In this document: positions 47,159 to 62,698 of the stretch, piece after piece
How the letters are laid out: every line of letters starts with the position of its first letter
How positions within the stretch are numbered: the stretch's first letter is position 1
Source of the DNA: Candidatus Thorarchaeota archaeon
GTDB lineage: Archaea > Asgardarchaeota > Thorarchaeia > Thorarchaeales > Thorarchaeaceae
Reading direction: 5' to 3'
Assembly: GCA_046482545.1 (NCBI GenBank)
Contig: JAWOEX010000032.1
Coordinates: 193,903-257,902, forward strand
Length of the DNA stretch: 64,000 nt
The notes under the pieces: generated by a model
What the model was told of the DNA's origin: nothing
The model's database searches: none
The model's input: the letters and a program-made list of their open reading frames with translations, nothing else
Made by a program: the position numbers and the translations under genes

Positions 47159-48244
47159 TTACAAAGTAAACTTGGAGTATTCCGTCGAGCATGGAGATCC
47201 ATCTGCAACCCAACACTCCTTTCGTTCAGGAACAAGTATTATATTACTACGAGTTTGGACTTCCTTGCCGTGTCTACAGATGGACTTTGCACCATCTGGT
47301 GGGGTATTCCCATAGCTATGGTCACTCATTATCTGCTTAGTTCTCTCAACATCAATTTTTCCATGGCTATCAGTAAGCAGTTTGACTAGCGTCTCATATC
47401 GAGTATATGACGACGGATAGACCTCTCTAGACATAGGTCCGAGGTATCTCATCTCATCATTGTGATAATGATTGGTTGAAACGATAAAGTGATTTCGTGC
47501 CTGGGTGACGAATATCTTGTTTGTGGAAAAGCCGATTCTCGCAATGTTGCCATCCTTGTCGAGTATATCAACATTTTCTCCGGCATGTGACCATTGGGGA
47601 ACTCGCCTGACAAAATCAATAAATTCATCTACTGTACTATGTTTTTCCAACCCAATTCTAGTAGCTGTTAAAGGAGGAAAGCCAAACCCAGAATTCCTCA
47701 TCTGCCTTATGCCTGAGCCCACAAAAGCTAACCCCTTTTCATTGAAGCCAACTACTGAAGGTCGCCCAAGATTTCCCGCCAGTCCACGTCCCATGAAGCT
47801 ATAACGCCCTTTTGGACTTATATGGAATGTTAAGCCAATTGGTTTGTTGGTCATTTCGGATGACCAGTCCGAGTTCTGAGTTGCAATCTGAATCCCATTT
47901 CTAGTTGCATCTCCAGTAGCTACAAAAGACGAACACTCTGGGAATGCATCTCTTACCGTATCTTTGACCTCCCAGTAAAACAGGACTAGAAGAGCTGTAT
48001 CATAATCAATATCCGCCCCATCACCTATACCCTTAGTTTCATCCAGGATTTCCGGATGGGTCTCTGATAGGAGATTCCGGTATTCTGCGATAATCCTACC
48101 GACGGCATTATCAGAAATTCTAAGCCGTTCCATGTCTTTTCTAACAAAAGGAATCACACTCTTTCTTATTATTGATGCAAGTTTCTTTCCATGTTGCAAT
48201 CCTATTTCATAATGTGAACCCTGTAAACGAACCATTTTACTCAT
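47159..48244 (-). CDS. Peptidase C45 family Ntn-hydrolase (type a)
   Basis: ECSSF, QNSDW, TNHYHN, SICRHG, GSPC. Confidence 0.88.
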   Translation of the reverse strand: MSKMVRLQGSHYEIGLQHGKKLASIIRKSVIPFVRKDMERLRISDNAVGRIIAEYRNLLSETHPEILDETKGIGDGADIDYDTALLVLFYWEVKDTVRDAFPECSSFVATGDATRNGIQIATQNSDWSSEMTNKPIGLTFHISPKGRYSFMGRGLAGNLGRPSVVGFNEKGLAFVGSGIRQMRNSGFGFPPLTATRIGLEKHSTVDEFIDFVRRVPQWSHAGENVDILDKDGNIARIGFSTNKIFVTQARNHFIVSTNHYHNDEMRYLGPMSREVYPSSYTRYETLVKLLTDSHGKIDVERTKQIMSDHSYGNTPPDGAKSICRHGKEVQTRSNIILVPERKECWVADGSPCSTEYSKFTL

Positions 48245-48320
48245 TGTCTATATTATCCCTATATGTTTTATTGTTTTTTTTTTAACCTTCTGAATTTGTG
48301 TTGATTCTCTAGTCTCACTC

Positions 48321-49415
48321 TTATGAGCTCCATATGTCTACTTCCTCGTAGCCACCCAAACATGGGGGACCGTGCGATATAATCATCTTGGAATTGGTCA
48401 TATCGATGATCATGGAGGCATTCGTTTGCATCTGATGGAGTTTATGACGTTCTAAATCAGGATGACGGCAAATCGAATGTGGTTTGCTGAAATGGTCCGT
48501 GAACATCCTTCTGAATGTATCCACAGAAACTGACCCAGTTTCACCAGATAATATCTTATCAGCGCGATGCTTTCGAATCAGTGTATTAGGTGAACGAGAG
48601 ACTTTATTGTCAGTTATCTCAGAATTAGTAACTACAAAATGGTTAGTATGTGTCAAAAAGCCTCTATCCGGAAATATGAAGTTTGCCGTATAAGGAGTAG
48701 TTTCAATGTCAATACACTCGCCGTCGATGTGTGTAATGAGGTAGTTGTGCGAAGAGCACCTTTTAGCAGATGATACTGCCCTTATGGCATTTGAGAAATT
48801 AGTACTATTTAGGATACCTCGTTTAAGGATTAGATGTGGAACACCATTCACAGACCAACCGCTGGATTGCAATGAGTTGGCACAAAGCCCGATGCCGGCT
48901 GAGTTAATACCATTTCCACCAACAGTCCCTGCCTCTGTGAATTGCAGAATATCTGGCCCTGATTTCTGCTCTATCCTCAGCAAAATGGAGGCTTTTTGAA
49001 AGATTTCATTCCAGTCATCATTTTGACCAATGATTGTATTTTTTTCTTTAGTTATTTCGGGAAGAGCTGAGGCCGTCGTACATCCATTCCACACGCCGTC
49101 CACTTTCAGGCTGAAGAATTCATAAACTGCATTCAAAAAGACAATGACATCATACGTTCTATCTGCACCAACGGCAATACCTCGCATTTCCTCTACTATA
49201 TGAGGAGCATATTTCTCGATGTAATGGTGATATCCTTTTGCCTTTTCTATCGCTTTCTCCCAAGAAACTCCAAAATAATCTTGAGAATCAAAAAGAGATC
49301 GTAGGGTACTCATCCTTAAATCAATCAGAGATTTGCACTTCTCGCCATATTCATGTCCCTTATTGAATGCATCGCCTTGGATAGTTATGAGAGGGAATTC
49401 TTTTTTCATTTTCAT
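48321..49415 (-). CDS. Peptidase C45 family Ntn-hydrolase (type b)
   Basis: GCTT, GQNDDW, HTNHF, SICRH, GPPC; close paralog of 34659..35765. Confidence 0.88.
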   Translation of the reverse strand: MKMKKEFPLITIQGDAFNKGHEYGEKCKSLIDLRMSTLRSLFDSQDYFGVSWEKAIEKAKGYHHYIEKYAPHIVEEMRGIAVGADRTYDVIVFLNAVYEFFSLKVDGVWNGCTTASALPEITKEKNTIIGQNDDWNEIFQKASILLRIEQKSGPDILQFTEAGTVGGNGINSAGIGLCANSLQSSGWSVNGVPHLILKRGILNSTNFSNAIRAVSSAKRCSSHNYLITHIDGECIDIETTPYTANFIFPDRGFLTHTNHFVVTNSEITDNKVSRSPNTLIRKHRADKILSGETGSVSVDTFRRMFTDHFSKPHSICRHPDLERHKLHQMQTNASMIIDMTNSKMIISHGPPCLGGYEEVDIWSS

Positions 49416-50831: not shown

Positions 50832-51623
50832 TTGACGACACCGAAGACAATAGGATTAATAGGTTTTGGCAGAATAGGGTCATATGTGTTCTCTAGAATA
50901 CAGGAATTGGAGGAGCTGGACGTAGGCTTTATCTTTGAGCCGGATGACAGTAAGACGGCTTCAATTAACCGACAATTAGTGCTGGATGACATTAGCGAAA
51001 TCTTTTCGAGAAATGTGGACCTAGTTTTGGAAGCTGCGAACTTTCAAGTGGTCGAAGATTATGCTGAGAAAGTGCTTGAAACGAATGATATGCTAATATT
51101 ATCTCTTACTGCTCTTGCAGACAAAGATTTGGCTGGCAAACTTGCGCGGACATGTCGGAACAACCAAACAAGAGTATACGTCCCACATGGGGCTGTCTTG
51201 GGTATGGATGGTCTTCAGGATGCAAGGAATCTTCTCACAGACGTTGAGATTGTAACTAGAAAGAATCCAACAAATATCGATTTCAGTTTCACAGATGAAT
51301 TTGACAAAGGAAATATTACCAAGGAGACTGTTCTCTATAATGGACCCACACGCGGAGTATGCAGCTTATTTCCTAGGAATGTGAATGCCCATGCTGTGGT
51401 TGCTTTAGCCGGTATTGGGTTTGACCGTACGAAATCAGTATTAATCGCAGACCCTGAGTCCGATGCTGCAAAACACCACATAACAGCGAAAGGCAAAGCT
51501 ACGCAGCTTGAAATCAAGAGATCATCAGCAATCAAAGGAGTCACTGGCGAGTATACTCTAGCTTCGGTCTTTGGATCGATTAGACGGGCTGCTACCAATC
51601 AATATGGGTTCAATATTATGTAA
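50832..51623 (+). CDS. Aspartate dehydrogenase-like protein (NadX/DUF108 family)
   Basis: IGFGRIG, DLVLEAA, VP.GA..G.D, TRKNP, LY.G..R.....FP.NVN, ALAG.G, LIADP. Confidence 0.85.
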   Translation: MTTPKTIGLIGFGRIGSYVFSRIQELEELDVGFIFEPDDSKTASINRQLVLDDISEIFSRNVDLVLEAANFQVVEDYAEKVLETNDMLILSLTALADKDLAGKLARTCRNNQTRVYVPHGAVLGMDGLQDARNLLTDVEIVTRKNPTNIDFSFTDEFDKGNITKETVLYNGPTRGVCSLFPRNVNAHAVVALAGIGFDRTKSVLIADPESDAAKHHITAKGKATQLEIKRSSAIKGVTGEYTLASVFGSIRRAATNQYGFNIM

Positions 51624-51688
51624 AATCCCACAATAAAATAGGTAGCTTGAAATATCTGGCTTTATTCGCTAAAAACAGGTTATTATTT

Positions 51689-53044
51689 ATGCCTACTCTT
51701 ATTGAAAACTTGGGCGATTTCGTATATAATCTTTCTTTTGAATCACTTCCACAAGAAGTTACAGAGACAATAAAGACCTCAATTCTCCATCATCTGCATA
51801 CTGGGTTCTCTGGTGTCGGAGAACGTGAATCACAGATAGCACGATCGTTGCTGAAGGAGTACTTCTCAGATAATGGTTGTTGCACCGTGTTGGGCGAAGA
51901 GCAAAAGTTCTCTATTACGCCGGCCGTTTTTGCCAATGCTGTTATGATGCACAGTGTCCAACAAGAGGATACATACAAGGGTCTACATCCCGGTCCCCAT
52001 ACTATACCAAGTGCACTTGCGCTTGCAGAATCCGACTCTCTAGCTGGTAAAGATATTTTGACTGCAATTGCAGCAGGGTACGAAGTGAATTTGCATGTGG
52101 GAACGCGATTTGCCAAGTTTACAAGTCCTAGGGGATGGAGAGGCACAACCATATTTGGAGTTCTTGGATCTGCTGCGACTTCAGCACATTTGCTGGCTTT
52201 AGACTCTGATGAGACAATCGGTGCTTTGGCAAATGCCATCAACTATGCGTCAGGCCTTATGCAGTGTTGGCTTGAAGGTACTTCCGAGTGGCTATTTACA
52301 AGTGGACTCGCGGCCAAGAATGGAGTGATTGCAGCCCTTTTGGCTCAGAAGGGAACAGAAGGGGCAAGAGAGTCCTTTGAGGGGGATCGGGGCTACATTA
52401 AAACTTACTGCGGTATTGATTCTCAAGAATCAGCGGTTGACGATATCATTGCCGACATCGGAAATAGTCTTGGAAAAGACTATGTTACACCTCATATTCT
52501 TTTCAAACCGCATGCAGTCATAACGACAATATTACCGGTGATTCACAATGTGATATCTCTAGTGCGACAGGATGATATTGCACCCGGAAATGTGGAGGAA
52601 CTGAGGATAACAGCAGGTTCCAGAGTGACGGATGGAGCCCTCGCGGACAGTATTCTTGATTTTGGCCCATATACTACCAAGACCCAAGCATTCAAGTCTC
52701 TTCCCTGTGCTGCTGGAATTGCAGTTAATTTCAGGGAAGTATCTGCTGACACGGCTGGTCATTTTTCCGATTCAAAGGTAGCCAATATCGCCAATAGAGT
52801 CTCGGTCGAAGAAGATAGTTCTGCTGAAGGATTCTATAACACAGTTGACATAATAACCGCAGACGGCGAAAAGCATCAAATTGAAGGAGATATCTTTCCC
52901 ACAGTGACTCGGACGGAAGCCAAGGTAAATTTGGAAAAATCAGCAGGCAAGTATCTTTCCCCCGAAGCTGTTGAAGATATCATCCGGATTATTGAGGATT
53001 TTGAAGAATACTCTGCCGAGGATCTTAAACTAACGCCAAGCTAG
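51689..53044 (+). CDS. MmgE/PrpD family protein (divergent)
   Basis: EDT...LHPG, A.AAGYEV, G.AA.NG..AA.LA..G..G....FEG..G, FKP. Confidence 0.88.
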   Translation: MPTLIENLGDFVYNLSFESLPQEVTETIKTSILHHLHTGFSGVGERESQIARSLLKEYFSDNGCCTVLGEEQKFSITPAVFANAVMMHSVQQEDTYKGLHPGPHTIPSALALAESDSLAGKDILTAIAAGYEVNLHVGTRFAKFTSPRGWRGTTIFGVLGSAATSAHLLALDSDETIGALANAINYASGLMQCWLEGTSEWLFTSGLAAKNGVIAALLAQKGTEGARESFEGDRGYIKTYCGIDSQESAVDDIIADIGNSLGKDYVTPHILFKPHAVITTILPVIHNVISLVRQDDIAPGNVEELRITAGSRVTDGALADSILDFGPYTTKTQAFKSLPCAAGIAVNFREVSADTAGHFSDSKVANIANRVSVEEDSSAEGFYNTVDIITADGEKHQIEGDIFPTVTRTEAKVNLEKSAGKYLSPEAVEDIIRIIEDFEEYSAEDLKLTPS

Positions 53045-53254: not shown

Positions 53255-55219
53255 TCATGTTTGATGTGTAATCCAAGAGACGATACCAAGTGCGAGCAGG
53301 CCGTTATCGGAAGACTGGTATTGCCCCGCTAGAGCCCAATTGTCGATGAAGAAGTTGCTGCCCGTAACCACTAACCTACCGTTTGAACCCATCTCCCGTA
53401 CTCCTAGTACTGTACTTCTGCGATAACTAGCCAATATATTGTCTTCCGTAGGAGTATTGATTCTGGCTCCCTCATAGTCAAAGCTAGTAACGTCAGTGGT
53501 AATGGGGTGGTTTTCGATCCTGGTAACAAGCGCGGTTTCCTCAGAATGTTCAATTGCAGAAAAGCTGAGACTGAAGCCAGTCCAGTTCAAGAATTCATTT
53601 ACCGATTTCACATCGGTACTTGAGTTTGACAGCGAGGCGACAAATATACCGCCTCCTGAGTTAACATAGTTCTCATAGGCTTCTATTTCACCGTCAGTAA
53701 ATTGAAGTGAAAACGGTTGAGGGTCAGCGGGAATTGTACGGTTCACGTCCCAAACACATGGATCTAGCACAAGTACACCATCGAACAGCCCCAAGTAATC
53801 TTCATTCAGGTTTGATGGATTTCTAATCTCTTGAACCGAAAAACCGTTTGAAGTAAGTTCAATATAAAGTTCTTTGAACTGGCCGTAGTATGTATCTATA
53901 TCCCAAGCGCTGTGGGATATATCAAATGCTACTCGAGCTAATGGCTCACCTGCAGAGAATGATAAGATGAGAGTGGAAGATCCGAACTCAGTAGAATTGA
54001 ACATGATTTCGGCAGAGTACGTCGTGTCTCCCGATTCGGGAACGCAGATTGAAATCGGAATAAGGCCAGTCTGATTGATTGTTACTTGAGGGTCTATTTC
54101 GAAGACGTCGGGTGAGTTTGATATTTCAGTAACATCATACGTCGTCTTCTCGCCATTGAAAAGCTGTATGTTGAATGTGTAGTTATCACCGAAGAAAAGC
54201 TTCTCGAAATTGAGCGGAAGTGTGCTCGGGTGAGTGAAGGATATCTCTGGAATCCCTCCGTTATTGCTTTGCTCGGATATGAGGTTTATCGATTCATCAA
54301 GATTCAACTTCCCTGCGCCGACGATATAACTGGGATAGTCCATCGAATCAGCGCCAGCGAGGAGTGCAGTAGTGATTGAACCTGGGGTATACTTGATATC
54401 TGATTCACAACAATATGCTATAAGTTCTGAAACGGCTGCAGCAACTCTTGGAGCGGCGAAACTAGTTCCATAATACTTTGACTGCCCAGACTGAACAAAT
54501 CCTGCAGCTAATATATCCGGTTTCATATTTCGGCTGTAGGTCGGTCCGAGACTGGTATAGTCATCTGGAATGTCATTTTCGTCCAGAGCTCCAACTGCAA
54601 TGCAGTATGGAAAGACACTTGGTGAAGATATGCTTGTTCCGGCGATACCATCTTGTCCTTCATTTCCAGCAGCTCCAATGACAATGGCACCCTGCCTGAA
54701 TGCTTTCTCAACAGCTTCTTCCAATGGATCTCCATATGCCGGAGTAGAACCAAGACTCAGGTTAATAACCGTACAGTTCTGTTTCAATGACCATTCTATC
54801 GCCGCAATGATTCCCAGAACTGTTGCAGAACCACTGCTACCTATTACCTTGGCATTTATGATTTCTGCATTCCTGCTGTTTTCTGCTATCATCCCTGCAA
54901 CTAATGTGCCATGGGCGACATCGCTTGGTTTTGCATCGCCAACTGTACTGTCTGTTGAATCGTATCCATACTGGGTTGAAACGAAGCTTTTCTGAGGACC
55001 AATCCTGCCTTGAAGATCTAGCGTCTGATCTATCCCCGTGTCTAAAACAGCAACTCGAATATTTTGCCCCTCTGATGGGATGTCAGGAAGTATTCCGGAA
55101 AGCAAAACTATGGTAACAGGAAGAACGATGAGAATGATGATAACCGCTCCTATGAGCTTCTTGGTATCGGTCTTCTGTTCGTTTCTGGTTGGTTGTTCTG
55201 GATCCCAGTAATAATGCAT
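53255..55219 (-). CDS. Membrane-anchored S8 subtilase with C-terminal GATase-like domain (Site-1 protease-like)
   Basis: Triad VAVLDTG / HGTLVAG / GTSFAAP, oxyanion AAGNEG; N-terminal TM; C-terminal FD.SH...GGG.F...GRLVV.G domain. Confidence 0.88.
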   Translation of the reverse strand: MHYYWDPEQPTRNEQKTDTKKLIGAVIIILIVLPVTIVLLSGILPDIPSEGQNIRVAVLDTGIDQTLDLQGRIGPQKSFVSTQYGYDSTDSTVGDAKPSDVAHGTLVAGMIAENSRNAEIINAKVIGSSGSATVLGIIAAIEWSLKQNCTVINLSLGSTPAYGDPLEEAVEKAFRQGAIVIGAAGNEGQDGIAGTSISSPSVFPYCIAVGALDENDIPDDYTSLGPTYSRNMKPDILAAGFVQSGQSKYYGTSFAAPRVAAAVSELIAYCCESDIKYTPGSITTALLAGADSMDYPSYIVGAGKLNLDESINLISEQSNNGGIPEISFTHPSTLPLNFEKLFFGDNYTFNIQLFNGEKTTYDVTEISNSPDVFEIDPQVTINQTGLIPISICVPESGDTTYSAEIMFNSTEFGSSTLILSFSAGEPLARVAFDISHSAWDIDTYYGQFKELYIELTSNGFSVQEIRNPSNLNEDYLGLFDGVLVLDPCVWDVNRTIPADPQPFSLQFTDGEIEAYENYVNSGGGIFVASLSNSSTDVKSVNEFLNWTGFSLSFSAIEHSEETALVTRIENHPITTDVTSFDYEGARINTPTEDNILASYRRSTVLGVREMGSNGRLVVTGSNFFIDNWALAGQYQSSDNGLLALGIVSWITHQT

Positions 55220-55333
55220 CTGTTGTTCCTCGGGTATAATCGGCGTGTAACTTATCGATGGAGAACCAGCACTTGAAGATATCGAATACGCGACGGGTTA
55301 ACGACAAATCAATTTAAGTAATATTCTTTAATC

Positions 55334-58294
55334 TTGAAAAATGCAACAGATGAGGGACCATTAGTGACTCAACAGCAAATTACACAAGAAGAAACCGAGC
55401 TTGAGCATGCTCCCTCTATGGAATTGACTGATGTTCTGGGTGCGCTTTCTGTTGATTGGAAAGAAGGGCTTTCCAGCCAGCAGGTGAAAGAACGTCAAAG
55501 CCACTATGGTCCAAACGCAATTCCCAAAGCGAAGGGCTCCTTCTGGAAGGTCTACATTGCCCCTCTTCTGAATTGGCTGATTAATATATACATCTTAAGC
55601 TCGATTGCTCTAATTTTTCTGGCTTACGCCTTTCCTTCCGACCAGAATCAGCTTGCTCAAGCCGTAGTCTGGCTTTCTATTGTATTTGTGAATTGTCTAG
55701 TTGCGGTATTTCAACAGTTCCGTGCGCAAAAGAAATTGGAAGCTTTAGAGAAACTATCTGTTGGTGACGCGCGAGTTAGGCGGAACGGAAATGAATTGAC
55801 TATCCCTCCTGACGAGATTGTACCTGGTGATATTCTCATTATCAACCAGGGAGACAAAATTCCTGCAGACGGTCGGATTATTCAGTCATCGAATTTCTCT
55901 GCTAATGAGGCATCTCTAACAGGAGAAAGCGTCCCGGTTGAGAAAAGTGAAGATGTGGAGGTTGAACCAGGGGCTTCAATTCCTGAAATGAAGAACATGA
56001 CATTCTTCGGTACGTATGCTGCTACGGGTACAGCTGAAGCCGTGACAATCACAACTGGCGGAGACACCCAAATCGGCAGGATACAGGGTACGTTAGAAGA
56101 ACTAAACACGGGTGATATTCCTCTAAGAAGAAAGGTAAACAAACTTGCCAAGTATCTAGGAATGGCTGCAATAGCCCTTCTGAGTGTTTCATTCTTCTGG
56201 CAAATATTGGTCAAACCTGTAATTGTTGGGAATGAGCTACTACTGACGCTTACTGCTATTTCACATCAACTTACCGAGGGCATTACGAAAGCTATGACAA
56301 TCATGCCCATCAACATTCCTCTATTGACCACTATCGTTCTTCTTACCGGTGTCTTGGCAATGGCAAAGAAGGGCGTGATTATCCGGGACCTTTCTGCAGT
56401 AGAAAGCCTTGGAAGAGTCAGTGTTATCTGTTCTGACAAGACTGGGACAATGACCCGTAATCAGATGGCTGTAAGACTGTGCTGGGATACGGAAAGATTC
56501 TTCTCTATCAGTGGAACTGGCTACGATCCAGAGGGTACGATATACGAAGCTATTGGTAAGCCCGACCTTGGCGATTCTGATTCTATTGTTTCTACCGAAA
56601 TCACCGATTTACGGAATCATCCCAACCTTCGTCAGCTCCTTCTCTGTGCAGGTTTGAATAATGATGCAGAACTCGTAAAGAAGGAAGTAGTTGAAGGTCA
56701 ATTTATCTGGACGCCTATAGGGGATCCTACAGATGCTGCACTTTTGGCATTCTTCAGAAAGACCGAGCTTGATGAAGCCAATGTCTCGAACCAGTTCGAA
56801 ACTGTGGAGGAGCATCCCTTCGATTCGGAACTGAAAAGGATGTCCAAGATATTCAAAAAGGATGGTCAGCTTATCTCGTTTGTGAAGGGTGCTTCTGAGG
56901 TTCTTTTGCCCCGGTGTGTTGAAATTGGTGGGGGCAACCCTCGCAAGATGACAAAGAGGGACGTTTCAGAAATCGAGGAGCTTACTCATGATTACGCATC
57001 CCGTGGATACAGAGTGATATCATTAGCTTGTCGCGAATTGGATTCACTTCCTAAAGAAAACCGCAGGATGAAAGCAGAAAATGACCTTGTCTACTTAGGT
57101 TTTGTTTGCATTGTTGATCCTCCCCGGGAAGGTGTTAGAGATGCGGTTACTCAATGCCACAGTGCTGGCATCAATGTGGTCATGATTACAGGTGACAGTA
57201 TAGAAACAGCTAAGACCATCGCATCAGAACTCGGTATTCACAATGAGAATTCTCTTGCTTTTGAAGGCAAGGACATACCTGAGCTAAGCGACGAGGATTT
57301 CTCGAAAACGAATGTCTTTGCACGAGTAGACCCTGAGCATAAGCAAATCATAGTTGAGCGATACCAAGATCAGGAAAAAGTTGTTGCGATGACAGGTGAT
57401 GGTGTCAACGATTCCTTGGCTCTCGCCATGAGCGATGCTGGAATTGCTATGGGCATCACGGGAACTGACGTCGCAAAGGAAGCTGCAGACTTAGTAATCA
57501 CCGACGATAGCTTCCCATCGATTGTGACGGGTGTACATGAAGGAAGAGGCTTGTTTAACAAGATCCGATATATGATTTACTTTTATATCGCAATAAACCT
57601 CTTCGAAAGCATTCTCTTCTTTGGTGCCCTTTTCGTTCTACCTGAAGGTATCATCATCTTGGCAGTCTGGCAAAGCCTGTACCTTGTTGTAACGACCCAT
57701 TCCTTCCCTGGTTTAGCGCTTGTGTTTGACAAGACTTCACCGAAAGCAATGACCGAGAAACCTCGAGACAGCCAAGACATCATCACCCCTCCGCTTGCAA
57801 AATACATGGCAATAAATGTCGTGCTCATGGTTGTTGGTGCTGCGATAGTATACGCTCTTACACTTACAGGCTGGGGTGGAATCGTTGGAGTATACTCTGA
57901 GAACCTCACTGGCGCTTATCCTACCCTTATGCCATTCCAAGAGGAATTGCCGATACAGGCAGCCAAGGCAACCGTGATGATGTTGACAGTGATTCTCTTG
58001 GTAGAGAGCACCCTTTCTCTCATAATACGTAGAATAAACATGCCCCTCGCTGATAGTATTCGTGAACCTGGTATCGAGAGATTCGCGGTACTGTTAGGAC
58101 TTATCTACTTGGGACATCTGATTCTCATGTATGTCCCGCTTGCACAACTCATCTTGGGGTCGGTCGGGTTAAATTTCTACTTTGTTCCACTAACACTATT
58201 CGACTGGTTGATTTGTATCATCTTCTCTCTTCCAGCGATACTGGGTATGGAGTTGTACAAGTGGTACCTCGATAGCAAGGGTGTGACACTTTAG
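55334..58294 (+). CDS. P-type ATPase, P2-like scaffold with atypical membrane sites
   Basis: TGES, DKTGT, GDPTD, KGA.E, DPPR, ITGD, FARV.P, TGDGVND; M4 PINIP. Confidence 0.92.
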   Translation: MKNATDEGPLVTQQQITQEETELEHAPSMELTDVLGALSVDWKEGLSSQQVKERQSHYGPNAIPKAKGSFWKVYIAPLLNWLINIYILSSIALIFLAYAFPSDQNQLAQAVVWLSIVFVNCLVAVFQQFRAQKKLEALEKLSVGDARVRRNGNELTIPPDEIVPGDILIINQGDKIPADGRIIQSSNFSANEASLTGESVPVEKSEDVEVEPGASIPEMKNMTFFGTYAATGTAEAVTITTGGDTQIGRIQGTLEELNTGDIPLRRKVNKLAKYLGMAAIALLSVSFFWQILVKPVIVGNELLLTLTAISHQLTEGITKAMTIMPINIPLLTTIVLLTGVLAMAKKGVIIRDLSAVESLGRVSVICSDKTGTMTRNQMAVRLCWDTERFFSISGTGYDPEGTIYEAIGKPDLGDSDSIVSTEITDLRNHPNLRQLLLCAGLNNDAELVKKEVVEGQFIWTPIGDPTDAALLAFFRKTELDEANVSNQFETVEEHPFDSELKRMSKIFKKDGQLISFVKGASEVLLPRCVEIGGGNPRKMTKRDVSEIEELTHDYASRGYRVISLACRELDSLPKENRRMKAENDLVYLGFVCIVDPPREGVRDAVTQCHSAGINVVMITGDSIETAKTIASELGIHNENSLAFEGKDIPELSDEDFSKTNVFARVDPEHKQIIVERYQDQEKVVAMTGDGVNDSLALAMSDAGIAMGITGTDVAKEAADLVITDDSFPSIVTGVHEGRGLFNKIRYMIYFYIAINLFESILFFGALFVLPEGIIILAVWQSLYLVVTTHSFPGLALVFDKTSPKAMTEKPRDSQDIITPPLAKYMAINVVLMVVGAAIVYALTLTGWGGIVGVYSENLTGAYPTLMPFQEELPIQAAKATVMMLTVILLVESTLSLIIRRINMPLADSIREPGIERFAVLLGLIYLGHLILMYVPLAQLILGSVGLNFYFVPLTLFDWLICIIFSLPAILGMELYKWYLDSKGVTL

Positions 58295-58370
58295 GTTAGG
58301 AACCTGTATCACGAAGTATCAATGGACTACCAAAAGAACTATCTAAATAACTGGATGAATCAGAAGTAAA

Positions 58371-59231
58371 TTGGTGTATGCATTGGCTCGAATGACTACT
58401 CATCGGTTCAAACGCTTGAAAGAGAAGGGAAAGAAGATTGTGATGTTGACTGCTTACGATGCACCCACTGCTAAAATCCTCAGCGATTCTGGAGTCGATG
58501 CTATCTTGGTGGGTGACTCGGTAGGCAACTCGTTGCTAGGTTATGAAAGCACTGTTCCCGTGACCTTGGATGATGTGATACACCATACTGCCGCAGTATC
58601 TCGAGCCAAACCACAGAGCCTCATTATTGGCGATATGCCATTTATGTCCTATAAGGTAAGCATTGAGCAAGCTCTCGAAAACTGCGCAAGGATGCTACAG
58701 GAAGGCGGTGCTGAGGCGGTGAAACTCGAAGGCGGGAGCAGTGTTGCACCAACAGTTAAAGCTGTGGTTGATGCTGGTATTCCTGTGATGGCCCATATTG
58801 GCTTGACTCCACAGTCTATATACGAGCTGGGTGGCTATCGGGTTCAAGGCCGAACTGCAGAAGCAGCAGAAGAGATGATTGAACATGCTAAGAAGCTAGA
58901 AGAAGCCGGAGCATTCTCTCTTGTGATTGAACTGGTACCTTCTGAGACGGCTAAGGTCGTCACTGACGCTGTTGATATTCCCACAATTGGCATTGGAGCG
59001 GGTCCCCATTGTGATGGCCAAGTTCTGGTGATATGGGACATGCTTGGTTTGTTTGAAGAGTTCAAACCAAAGTTCGTGAAAAGATACGCTAATGTGCGTA
59101 AACTGATGGTAGATGCTGTCAACGAGTACTCGAAAGAGGTCAGAGAAGGAAAGTTCCCTGACCCTGAGCACTCCTTTGAGATGTCGGAAGAAGAGAGTGG
59201 CCGTCTCTACGGAAGAACTGACTATTCCTAA
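58371..59231 (+). CDS. panB: 3-methyl-2-oxobutanoate hydroxymethyltransferase
   Basis: MLTAYD, LVGDS, DMPF.SY, VKLEGG, HIGLTPQ, IGIGAG..CDGQVLV. Confidence 0.96.
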   Translation: MVYALARMTTHRFKRLKEKGKKIVMLTAYDAPTAKILSDSGVDAILVGDSVGNSLLGYESTVPVTLDDVIHHTAAVSRAKPQSLIIGDMPFMSYKVSIEQALENCARMLQEGGAEAVKLEGGSSVAPTVKAVVDAGIPVMAHIGLTPQSIYELGGYRVQGRTAEAAEEMIEHAKKLEEAGAFSLVIELVPSETAKVVTDAVDIPTIGIGAGPHCDGQVLVIWDMLGLFEEFKPKFVKRYANVRKLMVDAVNEYSKEVREGKFPDPEHSFEMSEEESGRLYGRTDYS

Positions 59232-59452
59232 TTGTGAGCCTCTTGCTTTTTCTTTGATATCATCTCATTGAGATCTTTTACTAGTTCATTAGGCGGTATA
59301 CCGTGAGTATTGGCACCCTGTTCTATCGATTCGAATCTGGCTATTCCACAACCTATACAGTGAAGCCCCCATTCGAGAAATTTCTCGGCCGTCTCCGGCC
59401 ACCGCTGTACGACTTCTGATATTTTCATGTCTTTGGTAATTGTTTGAGTCAT
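59228..59452 (-). CDS. DUF1858 domain protein
   Basis: ITKDM.I.E....P.....F...GLHCIGC.....E..EQ....HG. Confidence 0.9.
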   Translation of the reverse strand: MTQTITKDMKISEVVQRWPETAEKFLEWGLHCIGCGIARFESIEQGANTHGIPPNELVKDLNEMISKKKQEAHN

Positions 59453-59509
59453 TATCTCTAACCCTTGTCAAGGTCTCATTAACAATAGTTAAAAACCTTT
59501 ACATGTCGG

Positions 59510-60490
59510 TCAGAGGTTGATTAGGTGTCCCACACTACCATCAGTATATGCGTCGGGCATCTTCTCAAACATACGCCTTTCACCACTGGACCCGGTACAG
59601 TGAGTTGGGACCAGAAGTGACGGCTTCATAGAGGAAAGGTCCTCAATGGTTTGCTCTATGAGTTCCCCTGTTTCGTCCTCAACCAAGTGGAAGCCACCTA
59701 TGATGGCAAAAATGCTGTCGGAAACAGCCAGTCTCTTGGCTTCCAAAGTTGTGTTGACGATTCCTGCATGTCCGCAACCTGTCATTACTACTAGCCCAGT
59801 ACGGTCTGACTTGGCTATGAGACATCTATCATCGAGTATCTGCTCATCCTCCTGCCACTCGCCTTCAATTAGCGCCATATGGCCTGGGAATCCCTTCTCG
59901 TAGCTGGTCTGGCGTGGGATTTCACCGCTGACAACTAGAAGGCCGTCTGCTAGTGTAACAGCCTCTCTAGTAATAACAGGTTTTCCTCCTGCACTCTTTA
60001 TCTCTTCTACTGTTGGAATAGAATCCAGTTTACGAAGTTCCCCTGTTTGTTCGTTTCTGATTGCCCGCTCGTGAAACATATCTGGGTGTAGATATACGGG
60101 TACCTCGGGCTTCCGTACATTGTTGAGAGCCCAAATCAGGCCGCCTGTGTGATCCCAATGGCCATGAGAGACTACAACCGAGTCGATAGATTCTAGGTCT
60201 AATCCCAGAACCTGTACGTTATGAGCAAACAGCTGGTCCGAGAGACCTGTATCATAGAGCACAGAGTACTTTCTGTCTTCTCCATAGGCTGTAACAAGCA
60301 TAGATATGCCGTGACCGCCCCACACATACTTGGGGTCGTGTTTTTCTCTATTGACCCAGCTAGGAGCTGGCCTGATGAGATTGCTTCTCGGTTTTGAAGC
60401 CCAGTTTACTGGATTATCAACAACCATTACGACTTCTAACTTACTCAGATTGGTAATTGTATTCATGGTTGCATCGACCACATGATTCAT
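59510..60490 (-). CDS. MBL-fold metallo-hydrolase (MJ0448/pterin-related subgroup)
   Basis: HG.S, YDTG, SHGHWDHTGG, GCGHAG, GGFH, P.HCTG. Confidence 0.88.
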   Translation of the reverse strand: MNHVVDATMNTITNLSKLEVVMVVDNPVNWASKPRSNLIRPAPSWVNREKHDPKYVWGGHGISMLVTAYGEDRKYSVLYDTGLSDQLFAHNVQVLGLDLESIDSVVVSHGHWDHTGGLIWALNNVRKPEVPVYLHPDMFHERAIRNEQTGELRKLDSIPTVEEIKSAGGKPVITREAVTLADGLLVVSGEIPRQTSYEKGFPGHMALIEGEWQEDEQILDDRCLIAKSDRTGLVVMTGCGHAGIVNTTLEAKRLAVSDSIFAIIGGFHLVEDETGELIEQTIEDLSSMKPSLLVPTHCTGSSGERRMFEKMPDAYTDGSVGHLINL

Positions 60491-60620
60491 CACCCACACC
60501 CAATAAAGACAGTTTCGATTGAGGGCAAGGAATGCACCACACTCCTGCAAAGGGTAGCAGGTTGCTTCAGCTAATTATTGTTTCATACTGCTTTTGGAAC
60601 TATCATCCGAGTGAGAAAGA

Positions 60621-61934
60621 TTAGGCGGCTCTAAGGTATTCCTCAATTTCCCAAGAGGTAATTCTATCCTCGCCCCCTAACTCTATTCGTTTCTTGTATC
60701 TTTCCCACTCACTGGACCTGAGCTCAATTATCATGTCAACTAGCTGGTGGCCCAATGCTTCTTTCAGGAGTCGATCCTTTTTCAATTCAGCTAGAGCGTT
60801 CGGTAGACTGGTCGGTAGTAAATCGGTTGTAGATTCTCCTTCAAACAGGTTGTCACAAGTGGGTTCAGGTGGTTCGATGTGTTCTTGGATTCCGTGAATT
60901 CCAGCCGCCAACATTGCAGCAAAAGCTAGGTACGGACTGCATGAAGGGTCGGGGCATCGACACTCTATCCTTGCATCTTCCTGGACGCCACTGGTTGCGG
61001 GTATCCTAATCATTCCCGTTCTGTTTTGTGGTCCCCATGCTATTCTTGTTGGGGCTTCGTATCCTGGTCGCAAACGTTTGAAGGAGTTCACTGTTGGAGC
61101 CAGAATGGCAGTCAAGGCTGGTGCATGCCTTAGAAGCCCTCCAATATAGTATCTGGCAATCCTTGATAGCCCCTTGCCAGCCCCATCTGCAAACAGGTTA
61201 GTCGATTGAGTTCTGTCCCAAAGGCTTTGATGTATATGGAATCCACTGCCGTTCTGTCTTTGGAATGGTTTTGGCATGAAAGTTGCAACAAGTCCTTGCT
61301 TGTGAGCCATTTCTGCAACTGCTAGCTTTGTTAACATGATATCATCGGCAGTTGTCGAAGCGTTGTTGTACCTGATACCTATCTCGTGTTGTCCTTCAGC
61401 GACTTCATGATGATGGGCGGTGGTTTCTATTCCCATGGAAGTGAGTGCTCTAATGACCTTTCTTCGGAAATACAGTCCGTTATCTGCGGGTATTACTGAG
61501 AAATAACCACCATTGTCAGCTGGGGATATGCTTGCTTCCTCATCTTCATTGACTAGGAAGAACTCCAATTCGCAACCAACGAACAAATACAACCCCTCCT
61601 CTTCAGCCTTTTTTACCACGCCCTCAAGGATTCCCTGAGGATCGCATGGATGTCGTTGTTTTGGTGTCTTGTATACTGAACAGGGTACGACAACAACCTC
61701 ATTATCCCATGGTGGTTGCACTCGTCGCTCTGATGAAGGCACTAACAACAAATCACTAGAGTTGACTCGAGCATATCCGGGAACCGAAGACCCATCGAAG
61801 AAAATACCGTATTCATTGAGTTCATTCATTCGGTCATAGGTGATTTCTATCATTCGTGTGCTTCCGAGTGGTGAAGTGAATAACAAGCGAATGAACTCTG
61901 GTGTGTTGTCTGCTCTTGATTTTATGTTTAACAA
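60621..61934 (-). CDS. glnA: Glutamine synthetase type I
   Basis: FDGSS, ELEFF, HHEV..GQHEI, FMPKP, NGSG.H.HQSL, RL.PGYEAP, NR...IRIP, RIE.R.PD. Confidence 0.9.
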   Translation of the reverse strand: MLNIKSRADNTPEFIRLLFTSPLGSTRMIEITYDRMNELNEYGIFFDGSSVPGYARVNSSDLLLVPSSERRVQPPWDNEVVVVPCSVYKTPKQRHPCDPQGILEGVVKKAEEEGLYLFVGCELEFFLVNEDEEASISPADNGGYFSVIPADNGLYFRRKVIRALTSMGIETTAHHHEVAEGQHEIGIRYNNASTTADDIMLTKLAVAEMAHKQGLVATFMPKPFQRQNGSGFHIHQSLWDRTQSTNLFADGAGKGLSRIARYYIGGLLRHAPALTAILAPTVNSFKRLRPGYEAPTRIAWGPQNRTGMIRIPATSGVQEDARIECRCPDPSCSPYLAFAAMLAAGIHGIQEHIEPPEPTCDNLFEGESTTDLLPTSLPNALAELKKDRLLKEALGHQLVDMIIELRSSEWERYKKRIELGGEDRITSWEIEEYLRAA

Positions 61935-62004
61935 CCTCCGGTATTTTCACTCTTGCCTCAGCAATACATGGAAAAATCCTCTATGTGAATAGGCCTTATT
62001 TTCG

Positions 62005-62083
62005 GCGGTGCAGACCTCAGGATAGGGCAACGCTGGAGAGGCAGGACAGGAGTTTTCCTTGAGGTATATTTGGCCTGCACCGC
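62005..62083 (-). promoter_or_regulatory. Structured element in the glnA 5' leader
   Basis: 9-bp stem GCGGTGCAG/CTGCACCGC plus inner stem ACCTCA(A)GGA/TCCTGAGGT; TATA-like TTTATA on minus strand at 62115-62120. Confidence 0.5.
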
Positions 62084-62173
62084 TCACTAATTTCAGGTAA
62101 GTCATGAGTTGTTGTATAAATATTTCGTCATCAAACCGAAATTGTTTTCAATTTATTCAGTCAAATACTTCAT

Positions 62174-62698
62174 ATGACCGAAAAAAATTCAGTCAAATTG
62201 GATGAGAAAGATATTACAATTCTGAGCTTACTACAGGAAGATAGCAGTAGGACAATTGCCAATATTGCAGAAGAAGTAGGTCTTGGAATTTCCACTACCC
62301 ACAACAGAAAGAAAGCCCTTGAGGAGGATGGTGTGATTAAGGGTTATCATGCCGAACTTGATGGCGATAAACTGGGTCGTTCCACAGTTGCGTTCATACT
62401 CACCACAGTCAGATATCGAGTCCCGGGCCAACCCGAAGTATTGTCGCAAAGGAAGTTTTGTGATGATATCAAGCAACATCATCTGGTCCAAGAGGTACAT
62501 GTCATCAGTGGGGAATACGATGTTCTGTTGAAGCTGAGGGCACGGGATGTAGAAGAGGTCAATGACTTTGTGGTGGATTTCCTCCGTCAAATCCCTGCAG
62601 TAGATCGGACACTTACTATGTTTGTAATGGAGGAATTCCTCTCTACACTAGCAATTCGAGGTTTGGCACAGTCCCAAACTCAACTAGAAGTAGAATAA
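62174..62698 (+). CDS. Lrp/AsnC family transcriptional regulator
   Basis: LDEKD..IL..LQ.D.......IA..VG......H.R...LE..GVI.GY; SGEYD.L.K RAM domain. Confidence 0.93.
   Translation: MTEKNSVKLDEKDITILSLLQEDSSRTIANIAEEVGLGISTTHNRKKALEEDGVIKGYHAELDGDKLGRSTVAFILTTVRYRVPGQPEVLSQRKFCDDIKQHHLVQEVHVISGEYDVLLKLRARDVEEVNDFVVDFLRQIPAVDRTLTMFVMEEFLSTLAIRGLAQSQTQLEVE

What the first reader, a model, noticed from the sequence alone, without database searches (positions are those of the whole stretch)
55334..58294. P2-like ATPase that has lost the canonical cation site: M4 PINIP instead of PEGLP, M6 Asp replaced by His
Seen: all cytoplasmic catalytic motifs are intact (TGES, DKTGT at D368, TGDGVND), but M4 reads MPINIP (56306-56320) and M6 reads LYLVVTTHSFPGLAL (His789); M5 N..E and an M8 Glu remain. 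Established: SERCA-type pumps need the PEGLP Glu and the M6 N..TD for Ca site II; Ile at the M4 position is typical of P4 lipid flippases (PISL, with DGET) and of P3A proton pumps (PIAMP, which require the M6 Asp). This protein fits none of these. Inference: an uncharacterised P-type subfamily with a new substrate, possibly lipid or an organic solute. That would matter in an Asgard archaeon because P4 flippases are regarded as eukaryote-specific.
Basis: partly seen in the sequence, partly recalled or inferred. Interest (0 to 1): 0.85.

Follow-up and report, generated by a model that had tools for sequence, protein, structure and literature searches.

The report
Asgard P-type pump, rebuilt ion site
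This is an intact ATP-driven membrane pump from an old branch of the calcium-pump family, found only in Asgard archaea among everything searched; one calcium site is erased and the other is rebuilt around two glutamates, two asparagines and a histidine, so it probably pumps a small cation other than calcium, and nothing marks it as a lipid flippase.

Summary
ORF 55334-58294 (+) encodes a complete P2-type ATPase with TGES, DKTGT and TGDGVND intact. M4 reads PINIP and M6 reads TTHS, with His789 at the SERCA D800 position. The M5 N..E and the M8 Glu are kept.

This is not strain decay:
- All 120 nearest homologs (61-88% identity) carry the same motifs.
- About 38 deeper clusters keep P-x-N-x-P, the M5 Glu and the M6 His.
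- Canonical PEGLP/NLVTD pumps begin abruptly below that group.

The clade is monophyletic (SH-aLRT 100). It is sister to the sampled prokaryotic P2A Ca2+ pumps and separate from P3A/P3B. A family-level match occurs in 282 of 400 Asgard species genomes and in 0 of 502 genomes of two other archaeal phyla. This genome also keeps a canonical PEGLP pump and four P1B metal pumps.

The flippase reading is not supported:
- The A-domain motif is TGES, not DGET.
- The fold is SERCA/SPCA-like.
- The P4 profile scores no better than it does for ordinary Ca2+ pumps.
- No conserved partner gene was found.

The best reading is a single-site cation pump with new specificity; the ion is unknown. I found no description of this clade in the held literature. 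The scan has reached the same reading before on other genomes (e1-5448297, e1-5383781).

The parts
55334..58294 (+). Coding sequence of the P-type ATPase (986 codons from TTG 55334; probable true start GTG 55364, giving 976 aa)
   Evidence: ORF list and translation. Full P2 domain set in Pfam: Cation_ATPase_N, E1-E2_ATPase, Cation_ATPase, Hydrolase, Cation_ATPase_C. Start site. AlphaFold2 model pLDDT 90.4, pTM 0.86.
55919..55930 (+). TGES (A-domain dephosphorylation loop), residues 196-199
   Evidence: The Gly-Glu of the loop (G197, E198) is invariant and T196 nearly so in 29 deep family representatives; most representatives read TGES. P4 flippases have DGET here (established knowledge).
56306..56320 (+). 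M4 motif PINIP, residues 325-329: I326 at the SERCA E309 position, N327 at the G310 position
   Evidence: Alignments to LMCA1 and SPCA1. MPINIPLL in 121 of 121 close sequences. P-[IVFWL]-N-[ILF]-P in most of about 38 deep clusters. In the model the helix is broken at 324-326.
56435..56449 (+). DKTGT phosphorylation motif, Asp368
   Evidence: D368, K369, G371 and T372 are invariant in the family and in ordinary P2A pumps; T370 is nearly invariant.
57392..57412 (+). TGDGVND hinge motif, residues 687-693
57596..57610 (+). M5 NLFES: N755 (= SERCA N768) and E758 (= SERCA E771)
   Evidence: SERCA alignment. E758 is invariant in 29 deep representatives.
57692..57703 (+). M6 TTHS: T788 (= SERCA T799) and H789 at the SERCA D800 position; V785 (57686-57688) sits at the N796 position
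   Evidence: Alignments. His in 28 of 29 deep representatives against Asp in 47 of 50 ordinary P2A pumps.
58004..58006 (+). M8 Glu891 (= SERCA E908)
   Evidence: SERCA alignment. Nearly invariant in the family, while the sampled prokaryotic P2A pumps mostly have Gln there.
55305..55363 (+). AT-rich upstream stretch with a TATA-like TTTAAGTAATAT (55313-55324) and a GAGGG (55352-55356) before the GTG at 55364. A possible promoter and ribosome site, read by eye only
   Evidence: Sequence; not tested.

Best explanation
The gene encodes a working P-type ATPase of the P2 lineage. It belongs to an old clade found only in Asgard archaea among the genomes and proteins searched.

Shown:
- Every residue of the Post-Albers catalytic machinery is intact: TGES, DKTGT with Asp368, TGDGVND, and the N, P and A domains.
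- The predicted fold is that of SERCA/SPCA with ten membrane helices and an unwound M4.
- Site II of the Ca2+ pumps is erased (E309->Ile, N796->Val, D800->His).
- The site I ligands are kept (N755, E758, T788, E891).
- Two residues specific to the clade, Asn327 in M4 and His789 in M6, are fixed beside them.

Inferred:
- The pump binds one small cation from the cytoplasm at this rebuilt single site in E1.
- It is phosphorylated on Asp368, releases the ion outside in E2P, and is reset by protons or by protonated His789 pairing with the glutamates. His789 would then act as a built-in counter-ion, as Lys or Arg does in ZntA, KdpB and plant H+ pumps.

The transported ion is probably not Ca2+, because the same genome keeps a canonical PEGLP/NLVTD pump. 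My split within this explanation:
- A borderline divalent metal (Mn2+, Fe2+, Co2+, Ni2+ or Zn2+) with His as a ligand: about 0.3.
- H+ or a monovalent cation (Na+, K+, NH4+) with His as gate or counter-ion: about 0.3.
- Mg2+ or another ion: about 0.1.
For: - Intact motifs and domain set.
- High-confidence model with M4 broken at 324-326.
- All 50 best structural matches are SERCA, SPCA1, LMCA1, Na,K- or H,K-ATPases.
- Residue equivalences from alignments to solved pumps.
- The rebuilt site is under strong selection. It is identical in 120 homologs at 61-88% identity. It is kept in about 38 clusters down to 33-50% identity, with an abrupt switch to PEGLP/NLVTD below 481 bits. It is kept in both members of old tandem pairs that are only 42-45% identical.
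- E758 is invariant; H789 and E891 are nearly invariant.
- N327 and H789 are among only eight positions that separate the clade from ordinary P2A pumps.
- The clade is monophyletic (SH-aLRT 100) and sister to the sampled P2A pumps (94). P3A+P3B form a separate clade (95). The outgroup is P1B.
- The own genome also holds one canonical PEGLP pump and four P1B pumps, so Ca2+ export is already covered.
- Pieces identical to the gene occur in salt-lake metatranscriptome contigs of two studies.
Against: - No experiment exists and the ion is not identified.
- His as a metal ligand is an argument from coordination chemistry, and the genome already has four P1B metal pumps.
- A pump that uses only site I has no characterised precedent among P2 pumps, to my knowledge.
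- No metal-sensing regulator or other informative neighbour is conserved.
- One sub-lineage (P0144) lacks both Asn327 and the His, and two more representatives (P0128, P0155) replace the Asn, so these residues are not absolutely required.
- I could not measure distances in the model because no coordinates are returned.
- RNA contigs cannot exclude DNA carry-over in the libraries.
Confidence: 0.7

Rival explanations
1. It is a transporter of a lipid or an organic solute, an Asgard counterpart of P4 flippases or P5 pumps. The Ile of PINIP would serve as a hydrophobic gate, as in PISL.
For: - There is a hydrophobic residue (I, V, F, W or L) at the E309 position throughout the clade, as in P4 (PISL) and P3A pumps. 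My own P3A references read PVAMP and PVAQP.
- A polar residue follows it, like the Ser of PISL.
- P4 profile scores are marginally higher for three family members (97-126 bits; two others score 86 and 89) than for ordinary P2A pumps (63-93).
Against: - TGES, not DGET.
- The P4 profile is far below its cut-off of 431 bits. The P5 profile gives 214-240 bits against 197-261 for ordinary P2A pumps.
- No P4 or P5 structure appears among the 50 best fold matches.
- The clade is sister to P2A in the tree.
- The acidic residues E758 (invariant) and E891 (nearly invariant) sit in the site. As I recall, P4 pumps have Lys in M5 and Asn in M6 there.
- No CDC50 homolog is found in the genome, though that search had no positive control. 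No conserved partner gene was found.
Confidence: 0.08
2. It is still a Ca2+ pump (or a Mg2+ pump) that binds the ion at a variant single site built on site I, and is a functional paralog of the canonical pump.
For: - Four of the five site I ligands of SERCA are kept.
- The nearest relatives by sequence, fold and tree are Ca2+ pumps.
- Public annotation calls members Ca2+-transporting ATPases.
Against: - D800 bridges both Ca2+ sites in SERCA, and its replacement abolishes Ca2+ binding (established knowledge). Here it is His in 28 of 29 deep representatives.
- Site II is used by every known single-site Ca2+ pump (PMCA, SPCA, LMCA1). Here it is the site that is erased.
- His is a poor ligand for Ca2+ or Mg2+.
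- The genome keeps a canonical PEGLP/NLVTD pump. Asgard families without this clade still have canonical pumps.
- The annotations are automatic.
Confidence: 0.12
3. A variant of the best explanation on ion identity: it is an electrogenic H+ pump or a monovalent-cation (Na+, K+, NH4+) pump. The Glu-His-Glu cluster would carry the proton or bind the ion, and protonated His would be the built-in counter-ion. Functionally this would converge on P3A or P2D pumps.
For: - The M4 motif lacks Glu and has a hydrophobic gate, as in P3A pumps.
- The pKa of His suits proton transfer (established chemistry).
- Family members score relatively better on the IID and IIIA profiles, as a fraction of their P2A score, than ordinary P2A pumps do: about 0.75-0.89 and 0.66-0.76 against 0.70-0.75 and 0.54-0.63.
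- The strain occurs in salt-lake and microbial-mat samples.
Against: - The IIIA profile gives 311-375 bits against a cut-off of 615, and the IID profile 369-418 against 645.
- P3A+P3B form a separate clade.
- The P3A essentials, the M6 Asp and the M5 Arg, are absent.
- The relative profile scores rise for all non-P2A models alike, so they carry no specific signal.
Confidence: 0.25
4. It no longer transports anything: a decaying or regulatory ATPase.
For: Loss of the classical ligands E309, N796 and D800.
Against: - The open frame and all catalytic motifs are intact.
- The new site residues are conserved over deep divergence and in both copies of old duplicates.
- The gene is present in 282 of 400 Asgard species genomes.
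Confidence: 0.03

Closest known systems
Prokaryotic P2A Ca2+-ATPases (Listeria LMCA1, PDB 6zhf/6zhh/9euq) and eukaryotic SERCA / SPCA1
   Same: - Best sequence matches among solved structures (387 bits for LMCA1, about 340 for SERCA and SPCA).
- Best fold matches (TM 0.68-0.80).
- Same domain order, ten helices, TGES/DKTGT/TGDGVND, M5 N..E.
- Sister clade in the tree.
   Different: - M4 PEGLP -> PINIP.
- M6 N..TD -> V..TH.
- M8 Glu is kept where the sampled prokaryotic P2A pumps mostly have Gln.
- M1 Gln -> Pro77.
- Equivalog profiles give 413-453 bits against cut-offs of 703-798.
- Site II is lost and site I kept, the opposite of LMCA1, SPCA and PMCA.
P3A plasma-membrane H+-ATPases (plant AHA2, fungal Pma1; prokaryotic members L121, L122)
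   Same: M4 has no Glu but a hydrophobic residue after the Pro (PIAMP in plants from memory; PVAMP and PVAQP in my references). A single protonatable site is conceivable.
   Different: - No M6 Asp and no M5 Arg.
- TIGR01647 gives 321 bits against a cut-off of 615.
- P3A+P3B form a separate clade with support 95.
P4 lipid flippases (ATP8A1, Drs2p)
   Same: Ile at the E309 position, followed by a small polar residue (PISL against PINI).
   Different: - TGES instead of DGET.
- Acidic residues are kept in M5 and M8.
- TIGR01652 gives 97 bits against a cut-off of 431.
- Not among the 50 best fold matches.
- No CDC50 partner found.
P1B-4 metal pumps (Co2+/Zn2+/Fe2+; M6 motif HEGT), compared from memory
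   Same: A His in the M6 helix, at or next to the position where Zn2+ pumps (ZntA) have the metal-binding Asp. The Asp-to-His switch goes with a change of metal.
   Different: The scaffold is quite different: 6-8 helices and an M4 SPC/CPC motif. TIGR01525 gives 237 bits against a cut-off of 346. The resemblance is a lead only and was not tested here.

Membership tests
P-type ATPase superfamily (HAD-IC, TIGR01494) | DKTGT phosphorylation site, TGES-type A-domain loop, GDGxND hinge; profile score over the cut-off | tested here: met
   All motifs present. TIGR01494 gives 268.7 bits against a cut-off of 62.3. Pfam E1-E2_ATPase, Hydrolase and Cation_ATPase match.
P2 lineage (type II architecture) | Cation_ATPase_N and Cation_ATPase_C domains, ten helices, closest to P2 pumps by fold and tree | tested here: met
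   Pfam; helices in the model; fold matches. The clade groups with P2A rather than P3 (SH-aLRT 94). No eukaryotic P2B-D references could be included.
P2A Ca2+-ATPase (SERCA / PMR1 / LMCA1 type) | Equivalog profile over the cut-off | tested here: not met
   TIGR01116 gives 413 bits against 703.4. TIGR01522 gives 453 against 798.3. Ordinary prokaryotic P2A pumps score 650-733.
P2A Ca2+-ATPase (SERCA / PMR1 / LMCA1 type) | Site II ligands: M4 PEGLP Glu, M6 Asn and Asp | tested here: not met
   E309->I326, N796->V785, D800->H789, fixed across the clade.
P3A H+-ATPase | Profile over the cut-off; M6 Asp (AHA2 D684) and M5 Arg | tested here: not met
   TIGR01647 gives 321.6 bits against 615.5. M6 has His and M5 has no Arg. 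P3 forms a separate clade.
P3B Mg2+-ATPase (MgtA) | Profile over the cut-off; M4 PEMLP | tested here: not met
   TIGR01524 gives 297 bits against 610.75. True MgtA references read TPEMLP and form a separate clade.
P4 lipid flippase | Profile over the cut-off; DGET in the A domain; PISL in M4; CDC50 subunit | tested here: not met
   TIGR01652 gives 97 bits against 431.25. The loop is TGES and M4 is PINIP. There is no CDC50 match in the own genome, but that search had no positive control.
P5 ATPase (ATP13A1/2) | Profile over the cut-off; M4 PP(E/A)LP | tested here: not met
   TIGR01657 gives 214 bits against 618.25, within the range of ordinary P2A pumps. M4 is MPINIP.
P1B heavy-metal ATPase | M4 CPx/SPC motif; profile over the cut-off | tested here: not met
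   TIGR01525 gives 236.8 bits against 346.25. The four true P1B pumps of this genome have CPC or CPH and serve as the outgroup.
Asgard PxNxP/His clade (defined here) | M4 P-x-N-x-P without Glu, M5 N..E, M6 His at the D800 position, M8 Glu; at least about 1000 bits on the clade profile A1 | tested here: met
   The window protein scores 1302 bits. Ordinary P2A pumps score at most 892 bits.

The most novel reading that the evidence does not exclude
The clade is an independent Asgard invention of a P-type pump for a substrate that is not a simple hard cation. It could be a lipid head group, a polyamine or another organic cation, admitted past the Ile gate and held by Asn327, His789 and the glutamates. 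This would parallel the rise of P4 and P5 pumps in eukaryotes.
Probability: 0.08. Interest if true: 0.85.

Novelty: new variant of a known kind. Interest (0 to 1): 0.5.

Why it matters
P-type ATPases are sorted into a handful of subfamilies by their ion-site residues, and each new site has meant a new substrate.

This clade is as deep as the whole sampled prokaryotic P2A group. It was found only in Asgard archaea among everything searched, and it is present in about 70% of Asgard species genomes.

Its arrangement has no characterised precedent that I know of or could find in the held literature. Site II is erased, site I is kept, and a His replaces the Asp that all P2 and P3A pumps share.

Identifying the ion would add a specificity class to a textbook family. 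It would also say something about the ion or metal economy of the closest archaeal relatives of eukaryotes. On that evidence it does not bear on the origin of eukaryotic flippases.

Tried and rejected
- **Related loci.** The search for related loci on genome contigs with the clade alignment chose the generic DKTGT and GDGVND patterns. It returned only ordinary P2 pumps at 31-36% identity, so the scan was wasted for taxonomy.
- **First Asgard tally.** The result, 379 of 400 at E <= 1e-150, is withdrawn. A local test showed that canonical PEGLP pumps reach 730-892 bits on the clade profile. I reran at 1e-290 and confirmed by eye that five near-complete genomes of 'negative' families hold only PE(G/A/S)LP pumps.
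- **Tree model.** The mixture-model tree did not finish in time. The tree reported uses LG+G4 with a short search and SH-aLRT support only.
- **P2C references.** A search for TIGR01106 in five genomes found nothing.
- **Gene neighbourhood.** No partner is conserved beyond the Thor-like clade. The panB-DUF1858-MBL-glnA-lrp block downstream is plain synteny.
- **Literature.** Searches on Asgard plus P-type ATPase, FUPA, the motif string, and P4-ATPase plus Asgard found no description. One Asgard transporter survey files the Asgard P2 pumps as putative Ca2+-ATPases (PMC7997004).
- **RNA contigs.** They show identical pieces in RNA libraries but cannot show a transcript start, strand or level. A contig beginning exactly at 55364 is not evidence of a start.
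- **CDC50.** The search found nothing but had no positive control.
- **Model geometry.** The structure model returns no coordinates, so site geometry and cavity size could not be measured.
- **Protein atlas.** It added only that the protein's own cluster is mostly Promethearchaeota.
Full report
**What is there.** The window carries an open frame at 55334-58294 on the + strand (986 codons, TTG).
- Pfam finds the complete type II architecture: Cation_ATPase_N, E1-E2_ATPase, Cation_ATPase, Hydrolase, Cation_ATPase_C.
- The likely start is the GTG at 55364. Close homologs begin there, a database record of this protein starts at residue 11, and a GAGGG lies 8-12 nt upstream.
- Salt-lake metatranscriptome contigs from two studies hold pieces identical to the gene. 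This is compatible with transcription but does not prove it.

**Residue equivalences.** HMMER alignments to solved pumps fix the positions.
- Against LMCA1 and SPCA1, IPE(A/G)L aligns with MPINI, and N..(N/M)D with V..TH.
- Against SERCA1/2 the C-terminal half aligns through M10.
- The result is E309->I326, G310->N327, N768=N755, E771=E758, N796->V785, T799=T788, D800->H789, E908=E891.
- Site II of SERCA (E309, N796, D800) is therefore gone. Site I (N768, E771, T799, E908) is kept except for the shared Asp, which is His.

**Not decay.**
- All 120 nearest homologs (61-88% identity, from Thor-, Loki-, Hod- and Promethearchaeota-labelled MAGs) read MPINIPLL and TTH(S/T)FPGL.
- An exhaustive search of 1.84 billion cluster representatives gives a graded series of about 38 clusters (945 down to 481 bits, 33-60% identity).
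- That series keeps P-[IVFWL]-N-[ILF]-P, the M5 Glu and the M6 His. It then switches sharply to PEGLP / N..E / NLVTD pumps.
- In an alignment of 29 deep representatives, E758 is invariant and H789 and E891 are nearly so.
- Only eight positions separate the clade from ordinary P2A pumps. They include N327, H789 and Pro77, which replaces a Gln in M1.
- In one large Asgard family two copies lie in tandem. They are only 42-45% identical, and both keep the site.
- Three representatives (P0128, P0144, P0155) replace the Asn, and P0144 also lacks the His. These residues are therefore not absolutely required.

**Place in the superfamily.**
- Every NCBIfam subfamily model is far below its cut-off. The order is PMR1 453, SERCA 413, IID 406, IIB 385, IIC 357, IIIA 322, IIIB 297, P5 214, P4 97 bits.
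- Four other clade members and three ordinary P2A pumps served as a baseline. The clade has no special affinity for the P4 or P5 models.
- The AlphaFold2 model is confident (pLDDT 90.4, pTM 0.86). M4 is unwound at 324-326.
- Its 50 best PDB neighbours are all SERCA, SPCA1, LMCA1, Na,K- or H,K-ATPases.
- The tree used 29 clade members, 32 ordinary P2A representatives, the genome's own PEGLP pump, two P3A, three MgtA and two MgtA-like pumps, with four P1B pumps as outgroup.
- It makes the clade monophyletic (SH-aLRT 100) and sister to the P2A group (94). P3A+P3B form a separate clade (95).
- Limits: LG+G4, a short search, and no eukaryotic references.

**Distribution.**
- Of the 30 representative clusters looked up, nine carry organism names. 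Eight of these are Asgard names: Odin, Hel and Promethearchaeota. The close homologs are labelled Thor, Loki and Hod.
- The ninth is labelled Korarchaeota, but an Arf-family GTPase lies two genes away, so it is probably mislabelled.
- Canonical pumps reach up to 892 bits on the clade profile, while clade members score at least 1046. I therefore counted only matches at E <= 1e-290.
- That count is 282 of 400 Asgard species genomes, 69 of 90 high-quality ones, and 63 of 85 genera. Whole families are without it.
- Five near-complete genomes of such families hold only PE(G/A/S)LP pumps.
- The same profile, at E <= 1e-280, found nothing in 301 and 201 genomes of two other archaeal phyla.
- The clade is old, apparently Asgard-restricted and common, but not universal.

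**Context.**
- The own genome (98.9% complete) has six P-type ATPases: this one, one canonical PEGLP/NLVTD pump, and four P1B pumps (three CPC, one CPH).
- Neighbours in the window are a divergent S8 subtilase, then panB, an MBL-fold protein, glutamine synthetase and an Lrp/AsnC regulator.
- The downstream block is syntenic in relatives at 62-87% identity. It is absent around deeper members, which have unrelated neighbours.
- No beta-subunit-like gene or CDC50-like gene was found (that search had no positive control).

**Mechanism.**
- Shown: an intact catalytic engine and a conserved, rebuilt membrane site.
- Inferred: one cation binds at a site made of E758, E891, N755, T788, H789 and N327, with M4 backbone carbonyls. 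Ile326 takes the gating position of E309, as the hydrophobic residue does in P3A and P4 pumps.
- Protonated His789 may pair with the glutamates after release and trigger dephosphorylation. The built-in Lys or Arg does this in ZntA, KdpB and AHA2 (established knowledge, not tested here).
- His with two carboxylates favours borderline divalent metals. His could equally serve in proton transfer. I cannot separate these readings with the tools at hand.
- Ca2+ is unlikely, because the bridging Asp is gone and a canonical pump is retained.
- A lipid or organic substrate is not excluded, but no tested feature supports it.

**Comparison and verdict.**
- The closest known pumps are prokaryotic P2A Ca2+ pumps such as LMCA1. 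This protein works on the same cycle, but it fails their defining tests (profile cut-offs, PEGLP, N..D).
- It is best described as a new variant within the P2 lineage with unknown ion specificity.
- I found no paper describing it. An Asgard transporter survey lists the Asgard P2 pumps as putative Ca2+-ATPases (PMC7997004). A 2023 review of open questions in the family does not mention Asgard pumps (PMC10654040).
- Earlier agents of this scan reached the same reading on other genomes.

Noticed in passing
window 53255-55219 (-) and 55334 (+): A 654-aa S8 subtilase lies head-to-head with the ATPase, 115-145 bp apart. The pairing is kept in an 87%-identical relative (L117) but not in a 62%-identical one (L120), where a flavodoxin/ferredoxin gene sits upstream.
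   Followed up: partly
window 58371-62698; L117, L120: The downstream block panB - DUF1858 - MBL-fold - glutamine synthetase - Lrp/AsnC is syntenic across relatives down to 62% identity of the ATPase, but absent around deeper clade members.
   Followed up: partly
window 58368: One salt-lake RNA contig (X3, 1122 nt) carries 22 A's directly before position 58368, three bases ahead of the TTG of panB. It may be a library artefact, or a hint of a leaderless panB transcript separate from the ATPase.
   Followed up: no
window 47159-49415 (-): Two adjacent paralogous genes (361 and 364 aa) match the acyl-CoA:6-aminopenicillanic-acid acyltransferase family (PF03417).
   Followed up: no
window 50832-53044 (+): An aspartate dehydrogenase-like gene is followed directly by an MmgE/PrpD-family gene.
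   Followed up: no
L136-L139 (G172:C69, G225:C24, G149:C12, G266:C50): In one large Asgard family, two members of the clade lie in tandem at only 42-45% identity. Both have the rebuilt site but differ in their M5/M6 flanks (FEGIVQ / LSITLHTFPGL against IMEAxIF / IFGxVHSLPSL). This suggests an old split of function.
   Followed up: partly
L134 (JABAHQ010001742.1), L135: A clade member is deposited under the name Candidatus Korarchaeota, but an Arf/Ras-family small GTPase lies two genes downstream. The record is probably an Asgard contig that was mislabelled or mis-binned.
   Followed up: partly
L123, L126 (cyanobacterial genomes G403, G404): MgtA-like P3 pumps whose M4 reads TPQLLP, with Gln where MgtA has the Glu of PEMLP. 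They form a tight sister group to true MgtA in the tree.
   Followed up: no
P0001 residues 855-859 (window 57896-57910): Asn857 in the M7-M8 outer loop is conserved in 90% of deep clade members and sits in an N-L-T sequon in this protein. It may be a glycosylation site.
   Followed up: no
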